A DNA stretch of 63,357 nucleotides from a virus (taxonomy: Duplodnaviria > Caudoviricetes). The notes beneath the pieces are model-generated. The model was not told where the DNA came from. It did no database searches and saw nothing but the letters and a program-made list of their open reading frames with translations. Numbering within the stretch: position 1 is the stretch's first letter; each line of letters begins with the position of its first letter. Of the stretch, positions 52,410-56,351 are shown piece by piece. A program made the position numbers and the translations under genes. The stretch is taken from positions 1 to 63,357 of the IMG/VR virus record IMGVR_UViG_3300011116_000174; one strand, given 5' to 3'.

Positions 52410-52554
52410 TTTTCGCTAATACCGTTAATAGTCTAAGTTCTGCTAGTGTATTTAGTGCATGCTCCTCTGCTTCTTTGTATTCCTTATCTCTCATCGCCTC
52501 TTCGTATAATTTTAAATTTCGTTTTGCCTCTAGTAAAAAAGACGAGTATTCCAT
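52390..52554 (-). CDS. Small hypothetical protein (54 aa)
   Basis: Not in ORF track; MEYSSFLLEAKRNL..., TGATG overlap with the pol stop. Confidence 0.6.
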   Translation of the reverse strand: MEYSSFLLEAKRNLKLYEEAMRDKEYKEAEEHALNTLAELRLLTVLAKNAGQEK

Positions 52555-54395
52555 CAACAATCTCCGTAACTATATCCATAACTTGCTTCACAATTTAAAG
52601 GCAAAGTATCCGCCCACGTTGGTCTCCAACGCATACATTCCATCACGTATTGAAGGGCTTCCTCTTTCTCTTCTTCTTTTGCGATACAGGCAACGGCATC
52701 ATGCACCGTTAAAACTACCCTATATCGTTGGCTTATTTTAATCATTTGTTCAGCAATCACACAACGCGCCACTGCTTGACAAATGTTCTCAATTACTTTA
52801 CCGCCGTAAAGCTTTACCATACCGCGTCTTGTCGGGTATTCAAATTGGGTATTACCCTGAGGGTCTGTAACTTTATCAATACCTTCGTAGCGTTGCCATA
52901 ACCCACTGGGTAATAAAAACCCTGCTTTGTATGGGTCAAATCCAACTACATCAGGCACACCCAAAGAGCATGCTTGCTTAGATATTATGGCGTCTAAGCA
53001 TCTACCCGCTTGTTTCCATAGTTCGGGTATCTTTCCGTAAGTCGCCCGATAAATTTGTATAATGTGGCTCGCTTCATCTTCCGGTATATCGACTCCGAAT
53101 GTTTTAAGTTGGGCTTGGAACTTCTTACCGCCCATGCCGTATCCGGCGCCGAGAATCGTCGTTTTACCCACAAACCTCTCTGCCGTAGATATTTCTGAGA
53201 CATCCTTGCTATATATAGCAGATGCCATGATTTTGTATACGTCCTCGCCATTCTCAAATGCCTCCACCAAATCTGTTTGTCCTGCTAACCACGCAACCGT
53301 TCGCGCTTCAATCTGCGACGAGTCTGCATCAATAACCACATACCCTTCGGGGGCGCATATGGCTTTCTTTAATTTGTTTGCGTTTGCCCCGCGACTAGGT
53401 AAGTTTTGTAGATTAATTTTGTCATCACCGCCCCACCGCCCAGTGTGCGCCGCGTAATATTTAATCGGTACAGGTAACTTCCCACGCTTGGCTATATCAA
53501 TAAAGCGTTGTGTGCGCGTCTCTTCAAGCGTAGTCTTGTTGCCCAATCTTGCTTCGACCAAAGCCTGAACGCGAGGATCAGGATGTGATGCCAGTTGCTT
53601 GAACGCTTCGTCGGTCTTAGCAAATGCCCACGCTTCCTTGCCAGTGCGCGCACTGATCTTTGTAGGGGGGTCTACACCCAAAGACTTTAATATATCTGCA
53701 AACTTCTCGTTTGACATCAGCGTATCTTTGTCTGCCACGCACGCTAGTAGTAGGGCTTCCTTTTTGTTTTTAGTATCCTCTAAGTGTTGCTCAAGTAGTG
53801 GTAGGTTTAGTTCCAGTACCGGTTCAATAAACATCTTTAGAGTTGTGTCGATTACCTTGAGTTCTTTCATAGGAAAGCCACCACCAATCCCAGGCAACAT
53901 AAGTATGTTAAACAACGTGTATGTCAAATCCACATCGTTCCTACAATACTCACCATAGGCATCTATCTCTGACTGGGTAAAGTTGTTACGGCGTTTGCCC
54001 ATAGCATTTATCACTTCCGTGCCTTTTTCGCCGATGTTATAACGTTCAGCTAATACTTTAAGACTACCGCCCGCCTCAACACCATGGGTAGCACGAGCCA
54101 TACAAAGTGTATCGAGCCAACCCTTCGGTTTGATACCATAGCGCCAAGATAAAATAGCGCCATCAAACTGAGTGTTGTGCGCTAGGACTAGGCAGTTCTT
54201 CCAGTCATATAGTTTGGCAAAGCGGGACTCGGTCATGTGTTTGTTGTCATACCAAACAGTTTCGCCGTCGTCTTCTTTCACCGCTACACCGATAACCTCA
54301 AACCGATCATCGCGAATGTACTCCTCGGTCGTCAATCGCGACAAAGAATATTCTCTGTCGTAATACGTTTCAAAATCTACCGTTAATATTTTCAT
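52554..54395 (-). CDS. polA: Family A DNA polymerase with 3'-5' exonuclease
   Basis: DFET, AHN..FD, HTGRW, NLQNLP, DSSQIEAR, RFVGK...LG.GYG, TVHD. Confidence 0.92.
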   Translation of the reverse strand: MKILTVDFETYYDREYSLSRLTTEEYIRDDRFEVIGVAVKEDDGETVWYDNKHMTESRFAKLYDWKNCLVLAHNTQFDGAILSWRYGIKPKGWLDTLCMARATHGVEAGGSLKVLAERYNIGEKGTEVINAMGKRRNNFTQSEIDAYGEYCRNDVDLTYTLFNILMLPGIGGGFPMKELKVIDTTLKMFIEPVLELNLPLLEQHLEDTKNKKEALLLACVADKDTLMSNEKFADILKSLGVDPPTKISARTGKEAWAFAKTDEAFKQLASHPDPRVQALVEARLGNKTTLEETRTQRFIDIAKRGKLPVPIKYYAAHTGRWGGDDKINLQNLPSRGANANKLKKAICAPEGYVVIDADSSQIEARTVAWLAGQTDLVEAFENGEDVYKIMASAIYSKDVSEISTAERFVGKTTILGAGYGMGGKKFQAQLKTFGVDIPEDEASHIIQIYRATYGKIPELWKQAGRCLDAIISKQACSLGVPDVVGFDPYKAGFLLPSGLWQRYEGIDKVTDPQGNTQFEYPTRRGMVKLYGGKVIENICQAVARCVIAEQMIKISQRYRVVLTVHDAVACIAKEEEKEEALQYVMECMRWRPTWADTLPLNCEASYGYSYGDC

Positions 54396-54625
54396 TTGTC
54401 TAACATGTCATCAACAAGGCACTGAGACAATACTTGTGCCAATCCAACCCTATGCGACTTGCGCTCCTCTTGTTCGTCAGTCGTGTAAATAAAAAGAGAG
54501 TCATCTTTGTGCATAGCGATTCCAACAAAGCTAACTATCTCACCATTTTCAAATTCTTTCAATAGGGTTTTCAATGATGAATAAACATCTTCTCGTTTTC
54601 TATTAATTGATACTATATTTGCCAT
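54392..54625 (-). CDS. Hypothetical protein (77 aa)
   Basis: MANIVSIN after AAGGAG, immediately downstream of the array. Confidence 0.7.
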   Translation of the reverse strand: MANIVSINRKREDVYSSLKTLLKEFENGEIVSFVGIAMHKDDSLFIYTTDEQEERKSHRVGLAQVLSQCLVDDMLDK

Positions 54626-54638
54626 TTCTTTTCTCCTT

Positions 54639-55297
54639 GATATCCTCACCCGACCACACCTAGACTCGCATCACCGCACCGTTCCATACCTTACCGAAAA
54701 ATCCATACCATGCCTTACATGACCTTCGCCATACAGCGCCTAGCCGAGCCACGAACTCCTTGCCATAACTCACCCCGCCGTATCGTACCGAACCGAGCCA
54801 TGCCCGAGCGCGAACTCCTTGCCTGACTGAATCCCGCCACTCCTAGCTATAACATGCCGAACCTAGAACTCCGTGTCTTACCAAACTTCGCCGTGCCCGA
54901 CCATGCCGAGCCGTACCGCGCTAGAACCACGATACCCAAACCTTGCCGATCCCAACTTCACCGCACCACACCTCGCCCCGCCTAGTGGGAACCGCAATAC
55001 CCTTGCCAAACCGGGCACGAACTGAACTCACCATGCCCAACCCTGAACTCCTCACTACACCGCACCTTACCCAACCATGCCTCTACTAACCATGAATCCC
55101 TTACCTCACCAGTACAAACCTCGCACCGCCCGACCCGACCTAACCGCATCGCGCATCACCAAAAAATCCATACCGAACCTTTCCTCACCCGACCAGACCC
55201 CGCCGTAGCTAGTCAAGAAGCCCAAGCCTTGCCCTGCCGGATCGGGACAGACCGATCCATGCCGGGACGCGCCATACACTACCGGAGCCTGATGCCC
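54639..55297 (-). ncRNA. Array of 11 putative guide RNAs: (GGY-NN)n pentamer tracts separated by 7-nt GGRNWUY linkers
   Basis: 5-nt periodicity NN-RCC on the + strand; 12 linkers; begins 3 nt after the stop codon of the RAMP-like gene. Confidence 0.85.
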
Positions 55298-55300
55298 TAG

Positions 55301-55912
55301 TTATGCTACTTTTTTGAGTGGCATTTTTACCGCTGCGAACTTTTTAACTTCATAGCGACCATGACGTGGTCTCCAATCGCCGATGCCAACGTAAGAACCC
55401 GCGTCTTCAACCCAACGCTTTAACTGCGCTTCGTTTGCTACGTCTGAGTTAATAGATACTTTGAACTTAGCAGTCCAGTCTTTGAAGTGCGGACGAGTGC
55501 GCATAACCTTTGCCATACCAACACGCACCGCAACACAGATACGATGGTCTTCGCTCTCAACCAACTGATCGACAGTCATTGTTCCGCCTTCGTATGTAAA
55601 CGTAGCATCGGTATCTACAAACATACCTGATAATGCCAATTTACCTTCCTTGCTTTTCTTAGCGCCTTCGACAAGCACCGACTCAAGCACACGACTTGGG
55701 ACAATTACTTCGTTCTTTTTGTTTAGGTATAACCCTGCACGATACTCGATGTTTGCCATAGCTTCATAGTCTGTATCGGTTTTCTTGCGCTTGCTACTAA
55801 TTTCTTTCATAGCTTTGCTAAACGGATTAAGCGGGTCTGCCGTTTGTCCGTTGTGCATAATCAATGAATCACCGCTTAATTCAACTTCATATTGTGTGTA
55901 GCCTTTTGGCAT
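55301..55912 (-). CDS. Cas7/RAMP-like RNA-binding protein (putative guide-RNA filament subunit)
   Basis: N-terminal strand + LIMHN; IVPSRVLESVL..GA helix; RTRPHF..W; C-terminal Gly-rich loop AGSYVGIGDWRPRHGRY; GAGGAG RBS. Confidence 0.75.
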   Translation of the reverse strand: MPKGYTQYEVELSGDSLIMHNGQTADPLNPFSKAMKEISSKRKKTDTDYEAMANIEYRAGLYLNKKNEVIVPSRVLESVLVEGAKKSKEGKLALSGMFVDTDATFTYEGGTMTVDQLVESEDHRICVAVRVGMAKVMRTRPHFKDWTAKFKVSINSDVANEAQLKRWVEDAGSYVGIGDWRPRHGRYEVKKFAAVKMPLKKVA

Positions 55913-55934: not shown

Positions 55935-56351
55935 TTATGGACGTCGTGATCGTTTGATCTCTTTCGTCCGCACAGTTTTAGGAACTTTTACCTTCCTCTT
56001 TTTTGGCTTGGAAGATTGTTTTGGTTTAATCTCCCTAGTCAAAACCTTTCGCAACGTCTGATCGCCAAGCGCCCGACGTCTACTTCTAATTGATTCCGTA
56101 ATCCCATCATGACAAGACTCGCATAACATAATCACGTCGTTGATAGTTTCCTCACCCCATGTGTCGTAGTGTCGATGATGTAACTCCATAGCGTATTCTT
56201 CGCTTGACCGCCAACATGTTCCGCACTGATACATTTGTTGTAGCGCTTTTAGGTTACGCAACTGAAACCAATGATCGGGATTTGGGTGGGACTTCGCGGG
56301 ACGTAGGACTTTATGTCCGTCGATCTCCCTAACTCTTTTCAATTGAGTCAT
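55935..56351 (-). CDS. HNH endonuclease with basic C-terminal tail
   Basis: CGTC...ELHHRHY..WGEE...LCESCH. Confidence 0.8.
   Translation of the reverse strand: MTQLKRVREIDGHKVLRPAKSHPNPDHWFQLRNLKALQQMYQCGTCWRSSEEYAMELHHRHYDTWGEETINDVIMLCESCHDGITESIRSRRRALGDQTLRKVLTREIKPKQSSKPKKRKVKVPKTVRTKEIKRSRRP

What the first reader, a model, noticed from the sequence alone, without database searches (positions are those of the whole stretch)
55170..55216. Guide G2 decodes to the tyrosine-recombinase catalytic-Arg motif (LYTGLR)
RNA-sense NN: UU UA AC GG CU CG GA AA UC AU = [FL]YTGLR[DE][KN]S[IM]. L-Y-T-G-L-R is the box I motif of tyrosine recombinases, giving a second, independent integrase-directed guide next to G3. 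The last four residues are less canonical.
Basis: partly seen in the sequence, partly recalled or inferred. Interest (0 to 1): 0.8.

Follow-up and report, generated by a model that had tools for sequence, protein, structure and literature searches.

The report
Phage guide RNA aimed at integrase
This stretch is one guide in a phage's VIPR array, a recently described CRISPR-like system of pentamer-repeat RNAs, and its code matches the catalytic-arginine motif of the integrase of small mobile islands in freshwater bacteria.

Summary
Window 54644-55297 (minus strand) is a ~650-nt array of YNNGG pentamers. It lies directly downstream of a 203-aa Cas7-like RAMP gene (55301-55912). That is the anatomy of a VIPR system, described in 2026 preprints.

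G2 (55168-55217) has ten repeats with NN = TT TA AC GG CT CG GA AA TC AT. Under the published one-base-skip rule this reads [FL]YTGLR[DE][KN]S[IM].

A metagenome scan that allowed the two variants seen in sister phages gave 7 exact hits. Six lie in frame on L-Y-T-G-L-R-D-N-S-I of homologous P4-type tyrosine integrases. The Arg aligns with lambda Int R212. The seventh hit is non-coding noise.

The integrases sit in islands of about 6 kb. The two longer contigs read int, AlpA, then a replication gene, and one is at tRNA-Ser. The nearest genomic relatives are in Polynucleobacter, Methylophilaceae and Limnohabitans.

About eleven other guides from related arrays hit the same islands: 38 hits against 0 for shuffled guides. 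The skipped base is the wobble base at 14 of 15 sites.

No target was found for the window's other ten guides, so the G3 claim is untested. Silencing of the integrase to block excision is inferred from the SUSP1/F5 precedent. Verdict: a new member of a known kind.

The parts
55301..55912 (-). vipr gene: 203-aa Cas7-like RAMP protein (phrog_4652)
   Evidence: PHROG hit 6.6e-51 and no Pfam family. AF2 model pLDDT 92.4. Foldseek PDB top hits are Cmr4, Csm3 and type VII Cas7, E 8e-6 to 1e-4, TM 0.45-0.55. 33.5% identity (E 3e-28) to the Ounavirinae protein family; that family includes the phiSUSP1 protein, which is 97.9% identical to wV8 gp096.
54644..55297 (-). vrRNA array: about 11 units of 9-13 YNNGG pentamers, joined by 4-nt RNTT joints that shift the frame by -1 (staggered architecture)
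   Evidence: Lag-5 autocorrelation; phase map; unit parse. No Rfam family. Contigs from three RNA libraries cover 54712-55055 (weak).
55168..55217 (-). Guide G2: ten YNNGG repeats, NN = TT TA AC GG CT CG GA AA TC AT. The RNA has the same sense as the integrase coding strand.
   Evidence: Exact in-frame targets in L089 and L090. The TT variant carried by sister arrays matches L087, L088, L091 and L092.
55218..55227 (-). Two pentamers upstream, read in G2's frame (NN = CT GC). They overlap the 3' end of the preceding unit and the GCTT joint, and they extend the match to the targets (Leu-Ala).
   Evidence: 16/16 in windows starting at 55226 and 55221 on L089 and L090; codon table. May be chance (about 1/64 to 1/256).
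55232..55268 (-). Hairpin inside the first unit of the array (8-bp core stem)
   Evidence: MFE -19.8 kcal/mol, z -2.1, 3 of 200 shuffles fold as well. Also present in L067 but not in L003 or L004.
55935..56351 (-). HNH endonuclease gene directly upstream of vipr: possible accessory (vap) gene or an unrelated homing endonuclease
   Evidence: PF01844 1.2e-5; PHROG HNH families. The upstream flank is conserved in close relatives. Association with vipr was not tested.
54392..54649 (-). 85-aa ORF whose RBS follows the last array unit; DNA polymerase gene (52554-54395) follows. The array sits inside the replication operon.

Best explanation
The locus is a VIPR system: a Vipr RAMP protein plus a staggered vrRNA array, carried by a lytic freshwater phage that has no integrase of its own. 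G2 is one guide of the array.

Mechanism taken from the published work, not tested here. Vipr protomers polymerise along the RNA and sequester each GGY. They present each NN, and the NN pairs read double-stranded DNA while skipping every third base. Binding represses transcription.

Shown here. G2's 20 read positions match, in codon register, the box I segment L-Y-T-G-L-R-D-N-S-I of P4-type tyrosine integrases. This segment holds the first catalytic Arg. On the two longer target contigs the integrase is followed by AlpA and a replication gene, in islands of about 6 kb. Their closest genomic relatives lie in Polynucleobacter, Methylophilaceae and Limnohabitans. Guide alleles in sister phages (CT or TT at the second Leu) match target alleles that use CTN or TTR codons. 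Other guides of related arrays hit other genes of the same islands.

Inferred. The islands are satellites or competing elements of this phage. G2 silences their integrase so that they cannot excise, as reported for SUSP1 and its F5 satellites.
For: System identity. The 203-aa protein has a Cas7/Csm3/Cmr4 fold and is a sequence homolog of the SUSP1-family protein. 76 of 80 vipr-homolog loci from IMG/VR carry GG-period-5 runs of at least 6 units on the vipr strand. On the opposite strand the figure is 12 of 80. In 77 related DNA-polymerase loci without vipr it is 1 of 77 (plus strand) and 0 of 77 (minus strand). Pentamer tracts also lie next to homologs in Medea1, wV8, LittleE and MakoManhole. 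The system is described in bioRxiv 10.64898/2026.04.26.720920 (Results, Discussion and four Methods sections read).

Target. The metagenome scan gave 7 hits, 6 of them in frame in 414-aa integrases. Domains are PF00589 1.7e-22, Arm-DNA-bind_3 and Phage_int_M. R251 aligns with lambda R212, and H339/R342 with H308/R311. L089 and L090 match the window's exact allele. Wobble bases differ among the hits while the NN positions stay fixed.

Skip rule. Skip 1 gave 84 hits. Skips 0, 2 and 3 gave 5, 8 and 3. With shuffled NN order, 54 real hits compare with 0-3.

Convergence. 38 non-G2 hits at 18/20 or better came from arrays L115-L136 on the same loci, against 0 for shuffled guides. They fall on the integrase N-terminus, the primase/helicase genes and a 124-138-aa ORF. 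The skipped base is codon position 3 at 13 of 15 sites, and at a 14th site in a partial ORF.

Specificity. There is no match with up to 3 mismatches in the phage itself, and the phage has no PF00589 gene. Among 401 genomes of the family of G001, 1 hit with up to 1 mismatch was found, and it is out of frame.

Habitat. The phage occurs in freshwater metagenomes: 20 runs from 13 studies hold at least part of the stretch, mostly labelled freshwater, lake or aquatic. Integrase relatives are in freshwater Betaproteobacteria.

Precedent. SUSP1 VIPR targets the excision recombinase of the F5 satellite (10.64898/2026.10.15.759431, abstract and section 6 read).
Against: The six integrase hits are homologs (75-89% nt identity). 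They count as one or two independent lineages, not six.

The non-coding hit L093 shows that exact chance matches occur in a collection of this size.

The exact G2 pattern gave 0 hits in viral contigs and 0 in genome contigs. A 9-NN form of the TT allele also gave 0 in viral contigs.

Integrases in sequenced genomes match only 16-18 of 20 positions.

None of the window's other ten guides found a target in what was searched.

The contigs that carry the window's exact target allele are only about 2 kb, so that island is unseen.

Nothing shows the islands are satellites: no structural or packaging genes were identified.

There is no vap gene between vipr and the array.

Expression rests on low-depth contigs from RNA libraries, which may hold DNA.
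Confidence: 0.8

Rival explanations
1. Chance match. G2 is a VIPR guide, but its real target is something else or is unknown. The integrase hit is one of the few exact matches expected in a very large metagenome collection, multiplied by homology among the integrases.
For: One of the 7 hits (L093) is clearly noise. The six integrase hits are related by descent. There were 0 hits in two other collections.
Against: The hit is in codon register and on a mobile-element gene. It extends by 4 unsearched positions. It lies in the same habitat as the phage. About eleven other guides of related arrays hit the same islands, against 0 shuffled.
Confidence: 0.04
2. Same target, different outcome. The system destroys or nicks the island DNA through an associated nuclease (the HNH gene directly upstream of vipr) rather than silencing transcription.
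For: An HNH gene abuts vipr. The preprint says that the types with predicted nuclease vap genes probably destroy their targets, and that some Vap proteins contain HNH domains.
Against: HNH homing endonucleases are common free-standing genes in phage replication modules (general knowledge). I did not test whether HNH co-occurs with vipr beyond the close relatives. The characterised systems act by repression.
Confidence: 0.12
3. The target elements are not satellites of this phage. They are ordinary integrative islands, or remnants of competing temperate elements, and the guide serves general inter-element competition or forces some other behaviour.
For: No capsid, packaging or phage-sensing genes were recognised in the islands. 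The P. fulva VIPR clade targets resident prophages, not satellites.
Against: The islands are about 6 kb and carry int, AlpA and a replication gene. In L092 the unit is 6364 bp and is bounded by a repeat that starts in tRNA-Ser. This layout resembles known small satellites (recalled). Guides from several phage lineages converge on them.
Confidence: 0.25
4. G2 is not a discrete guide. The array is processed at other points, or read in overlapping registers, so the unit that acts on the integrase has different ends from 55170-55216.
For: The match runs 2 NN further upstream, across the joint. The joints are only 4 nt. [quoted passage not shown] L121 carries a version shifted by one repeat.
Against: The joint motif GG+RNTT recurs at regular intervals of 9-13 repeats. 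This fits the published 9-16 repeats per vrRNA.
Confidence: 0.3

Closest known systems
Type II VIPR of Escherichia phage SUSP1 (bioRxiv 10.64898/2026.04.26.720920)
   Same: A small Cas7-like Vipr protein, which is a sequence homolog. YNNGG tandem-repeat RNAs on the same strand beside the gene. One-base-skip reading with the skipped base on the wobble position. Targets on either strand of mobile-element genes.
   Different: There is no vap gene between vipr and the array. There is no long structured 3' tail; the units are joined by 4-nt joints with a -1 frame shift. There are eleven units in one array, against one upstream plus three downstream in SUSP1. The host is an uncultured freshwater lineage. 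Protein identity is only about 33%.
SUSP1 vrRNA4 against the F5 satellite excision recombinase (bioRxiv 10.64898/2026.10.15.759431)
   Same: A lytic phage's guide reads codon-determining positions of a resident element's recombinase gene, and the skipped bases are the variable wobble positions.
   Different: Here the target is the box I catalytic-Arg segment of a P4-type tyrosine integrase, with a footprint of 10-12 codons against 6. Function here is inferred only. I did not learn the recombinase class of the F5 satellites from the section I read.
Staggered vrRNA arrays (fig. S18 legend of the first preprint)
   Same: Adjacent guides abut, and the end of one marks the start of the next.
   Different: I saw only the figure legend. 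Which VIPR type carries such arrays, and whether the joint motif is the same, could not be checked.
Class 1 CRISPR Cas7 backbone (Csm3, Cmr4, type VII Cas7)
   Same: The fold of the protein. One protomer per fixed RNA step. Periodic interruption of base pairing.
   Different: A 5-nt step with 2 read bases, against a 6-nt step with 5 read bases. No CRISPR repeats, no cas1/cas2 and no other cas genes in the window region examined.

Membership tests
VIPR system | Small (~20 kDa) stand-alone RAMP (Vipr) protein with a Cas7-like RRM core | tested here: met
   203 aa. AF2 pLDDT 92.4. Foldseek hits to Cmr4, Csm3 and type VII Cas7, E 8e-6 to 1e-4. The G-loop and thumb were not inspected individually.
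VIPR system | Sequence homology to a characterised Vipr (SUSP1) | tested here: met
   tblastn of the window protein finds 130 phage records, including the Ounavirinae family, at 33.5% identity and E 3e-28. The phiSUSP1 protein is 97.9% identical to wV8 gp096, and that query gives the same tallies by organism (130 records).
VIPR system | vrRNAs of 9-16 tandem YNNGG repeats in the intergenic DNA flanking vipr, on the same strand | tested here: met
   About 11 units of 9-13 repeats immediately downstream of the gene. 76 of 80 homolog loci carry such runs on the vipr strand.
VIPR system | Targets follow the 1-nt skip rule | tested here: met
   Skip 1 gave 84 hits against 5, 8 and 3 for skips 0, 2 and 3. 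Part of the skip-1 excess is by ascertainment, because seven loci were found with the G2 pattern itself. The non-G2 guides gave 38 hits against 0 shuffled.
VIPR system | Skipped base falls on the codon wobble position; targets on both strands of mobile-element genes; no self-targeting | tested here: met
   13 of 15 sites at codon position 3, plus one in a partial ORF; both orientations are used. No own-genome match with up to 3 mismatches.
VIPR system | Accessory vap gene in an operon with vipr | tested here: inconclusive
   There is no ORF between vipr and the array. An HNH gene lies upstream and an 85-aa ORF downstream. Medea1, wV8, LittleE and MakoManhole have a second gene after vipr.
VIPR system | Invariable structured 3' tail after the repeat tract (type II) | tested here: not met
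   Units end in GG plus a 4-nt RNTT joint. This fits the 'staggered array' variant, which I know only from a figure legend.
VIPR system | vrRNA is expressed, processed and bound by Vipr; it represses the target | not testable with these tools
   The only data are low-depth contigs from three RNA libraries over 54712-55055 and 55291-55579.
Tyrosine recombinase (the target gene) | PF00589 catalytic domain with box I Arg and box II H-x-x-R | tested here: met
   PF00589 1.7e-22 and 4.8e-21. R251 aligns with lambda R212; H339 and R342 align with H308 and R311. The lambda residue roles are recalled; the numbering was checked.
Tyrosine recombinase (the target gene) | Tyr nucleophile | tested here: inconclusive
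   A Tyr lies in the C-terminal R-R-A-Y segment, but MAFFT did not place it under lambda's Tyr.
Phage satellite (the target element) | Small island with int, alpA and a replication gene that is mobilised by a helper phage | tested here: inconclusive
   Gene content is met. L092 has a 6364-bp unit bounded by a repeat starting in tRNA-Ser. Helper dependence and packaging cannot be tested here.

The most novel reading that the evidence does not exclude
The array records an ongoing codon-family arms race with a previously unrecognised family of roughly 6-kb minimalist satellites of freshwater Polynucleobacter and Methylophilaceae phages.

The one-base skip neutralises ordinary synonymous escape. 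The islands can then escape only by switching between the two codon families of Leu, Arg or Ser. The phage answers with guide alleles (CT or TT at the second Leu) and by swapping cassettes within a staggered array.

In that array, joint nucleotides may be read in two registers, so that neighbouring guides share bases.
Probability: 0.3. Interest if true: 0.6.

Novelty: new member of a known kind. Interest (0 to 1): 0.5.

Why it matters
It is an independent, purely genomic confirmation of the VIPR one-base-skip code. It comes from a phage lineage and habitat far from the E. coli and Pseudomonas systems in which the code was worked out.

It repeats the 'silence the rival's recombinase' logic, this time on the most conserved catalytic motif of a tyrosine integrase.

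It gives a host prediction for an abundant uncultured freshwater phage: bacteria that carry these islands, probably Polynucleobacter or Methylophilaceae relatives.

It points to a family of very small integrative islands as candidate satellites.

It supplies natural guide/target allele pairs (CTN against TTR Leu) for studying escape from wobble-skipping recognition.

It does not reveal a new kind of system.

Tried and rejected
Readings considered before the literature search and dropped:
- CsrA- or TRAP-like protein sponge RNA.
- G-quadruplex array.
- rut site on the C-rich strand.
- T7-type primase site cluster.
- Reverse-transcriptase template.
None of these explains the linkage to a Cas7-like gene or the gapped in-frame targets.

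Rfam gave nothing for the window region or for four other VIPR loci.

megablast of the region against phages found no match.

Pattern scans that found nothing:
- Exact G2 pattern: 0 in viral contigs and 0 in genome contigs.
- 9-NN TT-allele pattern: 0 in viral contigs.

A sliding search of the window's whole array against 21 loci (220 kb) found no guide other than G2 at 16/18 or 18/20 in register. The scattered 16/18 hits are off-phase or G-rich strings, at the level of the skip-0/2/3 controls.

The family-wide scan of 401 genomes found only one out-of-frame hit.

The search of solved structures matched only the N-terminal domains of the integrase. The catalytic Arg was therefore placed by alignment to lambda Int instead.

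RNA-library contigs did not cover 55076-55283, which holds G2. This is no evidence either way.

ARAGORN found no tRNA in the actinophage VIPR loci. Folds of their tRNA-like elements were not better than shuffles.

Supplementary files and figures of the three preprints could not be seen. Type assignment, data S3 targets and the staggered-array details may bear on the claims.

I read only the abstract and outline of 10.64898/2026.04.26.720927.

Full report
WHAT IS THERE.
The window is a complete 63,357-bp IMG/VR virus record. Around the finding the genes run on the minus strand:
- an HNH endonuclease gene (55935-56351);
- a 203-aa gene of PHROG 4652 with no Pfam family (55301-55912);
- a non-coding tract of about 650 nt (54644-55297);
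- an 85-aa ORF;
- a family A DNA polymerase, an exonuclease and a helicase.

The tract has a strong 5-nt period. Identity at lag 5 is 0.425, against 0.21-0.30 at neighbouring lags. It is the only such tract in the window. On the minus strand it reads as YNNGG pentamers, with GG every five bases. The phase shifts by -1 at recurrent 4-nt joints (GG + RNTT). This divides the tract into about eleven units of 9-13 pentamers.

No Rfam family matches the region.

WHAT KIND OF THING IT IS.
Close relatives of the phage (DNA polymerase 91-99% identical) carry the same tract as a mosaic of shared and unshared units. The other 77 related polymerase loci do not carry it: 1 of 77 on the plus strand and 0 of 77 on the minus strand.

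Distant phages that encode a homolog of the 203-aa protein also have NNGGY tracts beside it. These are Pseudomonas phage Medea1, Escherichia phage wV8, Mycobacterium phage LittleE and Gordonia phage MakoManhole. Gordonia phage Trine showed its period-5 excess inside the gene that follows the homolog rather than in intergenic DNA; I did not inspect it.

Among 80 IMG/VR loci that encode homologs at 30-100% identity, 76 have runs of at least six GG-period-5 units on the gene's strand. Only 12 have such runs on the other strand.

The protein model is confident, with pLDDT 92.4. Its best PDB matches are the Cas7-type backbone subunits Cmr4, Csm3 and type VII Cas7 (E 8e-6 to 1e-4).

A full-text search found the matching description. 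[quoted passage not shown] I read the Results, the Discussion and four Methods sections. The paper reports the following:
- VIPR systems pair a ~20-kDa RAMP (Vipr) with vrRNAs of 9-16 YNNGG repeats.
- The NN dinucleotides read double-stranded DNA with one skipped base per pair.
- The skipped base usually falls on the codon wobble position.
- Either strand can be targeted.
- The outcome is transcriptional repression.
- Natural targets are satellites and prophages.

The characterised SUSP1 protein belongs to the family my protein hits. phiSUSP1 is 97.9% identical to wV8 gp096. The window protein matches that family at 33.5% identity, E 3e-28.

The window's array differs from the type II layout in two ways. 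It has no long structured tail, and there is no vap gene between vipr and the array. The abutting, frame-shifted units fit the 'staggered arrays' that the paper mentions. I saw only the legend of that figure.

TESTING G2.
Exact G2 pattern:
- no match within 3 mismatches in the phage itself;
- 0 hits in viral contigs;
- 0 hits in genome contigs.

Sister arrays carry two alleles of this unit: TT instead of CT at the fifth NN, and AG instead of AA at the eighth. I therefore spent the single metagenome scan on a pattern with Y and R at those two positions. It gave seven hits.

Six of the seven lie in frame in homologous 414-aa ORFs, on L-Y-T-G-L-R-D-N-S-I within ...LRLALYTGLRDNSIRGALWGEIDLE.... 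The seventh (L093) lies in no open frame and is best read as a chance match.

The ORFs are P4-type tyrosine integrases, with Arm-DNA-bind_3, Phage_int_M and PF00589 at 1.7e-22. In a MAFFT alignment with lambda Int, the Arg of LYTGLR (R251) sits under the Arg of lambda's T-G-Q-R, which I verified to be residue 212. H339 and R342 sit under H308 and R311. That those lambda residues are catalytic is recalled knowledge.

L089 and L090 match the window's own allele (CT). L087, L088, L091 and L092 match the TT allele carried by L067, L116, L117 and L119. Across the six contigs the NN positions are fixed while the skipped bases vary (TTA/TTG, ACT/ACG/ACA, GGC/GGT, CGT/CGG/CGA, TCG/TCT/TCC).

In the window, the two pentamers upstream of G2 read in G2's frame give CT GC. 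The target there reads Leu-Ala, so the match in L089 and L090 is 24 of 24.

HOW MUCH OF THIS IS BEYOND CHANCE.
The six integrase hits are homologs. Within one group they are 88-89% identical at the nucleotide level; between the L087 group and the L089/L090 group the figure is about 75%. They are one or two independent observations, not six. L093 shows that exact chance matches occur in a collection of this size.

The case therefore rests on these additional points:
- The match is in codon register.
- It extends by four unsearched positions.
- Phage and target share a habitat. The phage region occurs in 20 runs from 13 studies, mostly labelled freshwater, lake or aquatic. The nearest genomic integrases (62-77% identical) are mostly in freshwater Betaproteobacteria: Methylophilaceae, Polynucleobacter, Limnohabitans and other Burkholderiales MAGs; one, at 62%, is in a Porticoccaceae MAG.
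- Other guides converge on the same elements.

On convergence: a sliding search with the 1-nt skip rule, using the arrays of 23 related loci (L114-L136) against the 21 target loci, gave 38 non-G2 hits at 18/20 or better, against 0 for shuffled guides. About eleven distinct guides account for these hits. They fall on:
- the integrase N-terminus (K-V-Y-Y-L-N-D-G-N);
- the primase/helicase genes;
- a conserved 124-138-aa ORF;
- an ORF fragment just across the att core from the integrase in L087 (19 of 20 positions).

The skipped base is codon position 3 at 13 of the 15 sites examined, and at a 14th site in a 54-aa partial ORF. Guides occur in both orientations relative to the genes.

Controls with 0, 2 or 3 skipped bases gave 0-10 hits, against 49-84 for one skipped base. 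Shuffling NN order gave 0-3 hits, against 22-54 real.

The guide is specific to a sub-family. In 401 genomes of the family of G001, only one hit with up to 1 mismatch appeared, and it was out of frame.

THE TARGET ELEMENTS.
- L087 reads int, a 196-aa ORF, AlpA, a 163-aa ORF, Prim-Pol/PriCT_2/DUF3987, then small ORFs.
- L092 reads int, a 157-aa ORF, AlpA, a 195-aa primase-like ORF and a PriCT_2/AAA_25 helicase. A 127-nt perfect direct repeat begins inside the 3' end of tRNA-Ser. The spacing is 6364 bp, which gives the unit length of the island.
- The Methylophilaceae genome copy (L094) has int, small ORFs and a family A polymerase-like gene, followed by host two-component genes.

No structural or packaging genes were recognised. 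The layout (about 6 kb, with int, alpA and a replication gene) resembles small phage satellites, but satellite status is an inference.

LIKELY MECHANISM.
Shown here:
- the anatomy of the locus;
- the homology and fold of the protein;
- the gapped, in-register match of G2 to integrase box I;
- the allele pairing;
- the convergence of related guides.

Taken from the preprints:
- Vipr filaments sequester GGY and present NN.
- The RNA-DNA hybrid skips every third base and forms an R-loop triplex (10.64898/2026.04.26.720927, abstract only).
- Binding represses transcription.

Inferred: during infection the phage silences int of resident islands and so blocks their excision. This parallels SUSP1, whose VIPR keeps F5 satellites immobile by targeting their excision recombinase (10.64898/2026.10.15.759431, abstract and section 6).

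G2 has the sense of the integrase mRNA, so it would pair with the template strand.

The target codons include Leu, Arg and Ser, the only residues with two codon families. The genomic relatives differ from the guide mostly at those codons (CTN/TTR, CGN/AGR), along with a few amino-acid changes. The CT and TT guide alleles fit such a contest, but two alleles are thin evidence.

LIMITS.
- The contigs with the window's exact target allele are about 2 kb.
- Expression evidence is limited to low-depth contigs from three RNA libraries covering 54712-55055 and 55291-55579.
- The role of the upstream HNH gene is open.
- Figures and supplements of the preprints were not available.

VERDICT.
The feature is a new member of a recently described kind, not a new kind.

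Noticed in passing
L084 5192-5250 and 5336-5396; L085 2978-3030 and 3094-3146: In the VIPR loci of the actinophages LittleE and MakoManhole, the pentamer tracts are punctuated by elements that look like tRNA minihelices. Each has a 5-6-bp acceptor-like stem enclosing a stem-loop with a GGTTCGA-type T-loop. This suggests that host tRNA-processing enzymes might cut the array. The preprint text I read mentions hammerhead-interspersed arrays but not tRNA-like ones. ARAGORN and Rfam call nothing, and fold z-scores are not significant.
   Followed up: partly
window 55935-56351 (-): An HNH endonuclease gene abuts the vipr gene, and its flank is conserved in close relatives. It could be a nuclease-type accessory gene of the system or an unrelated homing endonuclease.
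   Followed up: no
window 55232-55268 (-): A stable hairpin (8-bp core, -19.8 kcal/mol, z -2.1) lies inside the first unit of the array. It is shared with L067 but absent from L003 and L004. It may be a processing or termination signal.
   Followed up: partly
window 54645-54731, 54869-54989, 55049-55104: Contigs from other samples skip or replace whole array units at these places (one of the three joints is in an RNA-library run, two in a run that is probably DNA). This fits cassette-level gain, loss and exchange of guides between strains.
   Followed up: no
L092 114-240 and 6478-6604: A 127-nt perfect direct repeat starts in the 3' end of tRNA-Ser and runs to the contig end. The target island is either present in tandem or was assembled from a mix of integrated and circular forms. 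The unit length is 6364 bp.
   Followed up: partly
L083 3650-3880 and 5040-5270: In wV8 the repeat features annotated as 'DR_4' on both sides of gp096/gp095 coincide with the pentamer tracts and their conserved tails. A long-standing annotated direct repeat of Felix O1-like phages is therefore part of the VIPR RNA genes.
   Followed up: partly
L094 12718-14568; L087 2971-5352; L092 2168-4243: Islands with near-identical integrases carry unrelated replication modules: a family A polymerase-like gene, Prim-Pol/DUF3987, or PriCT_2/AAA_25. So the islands exchange modules behind a conserved int gene.
   Followed up: no
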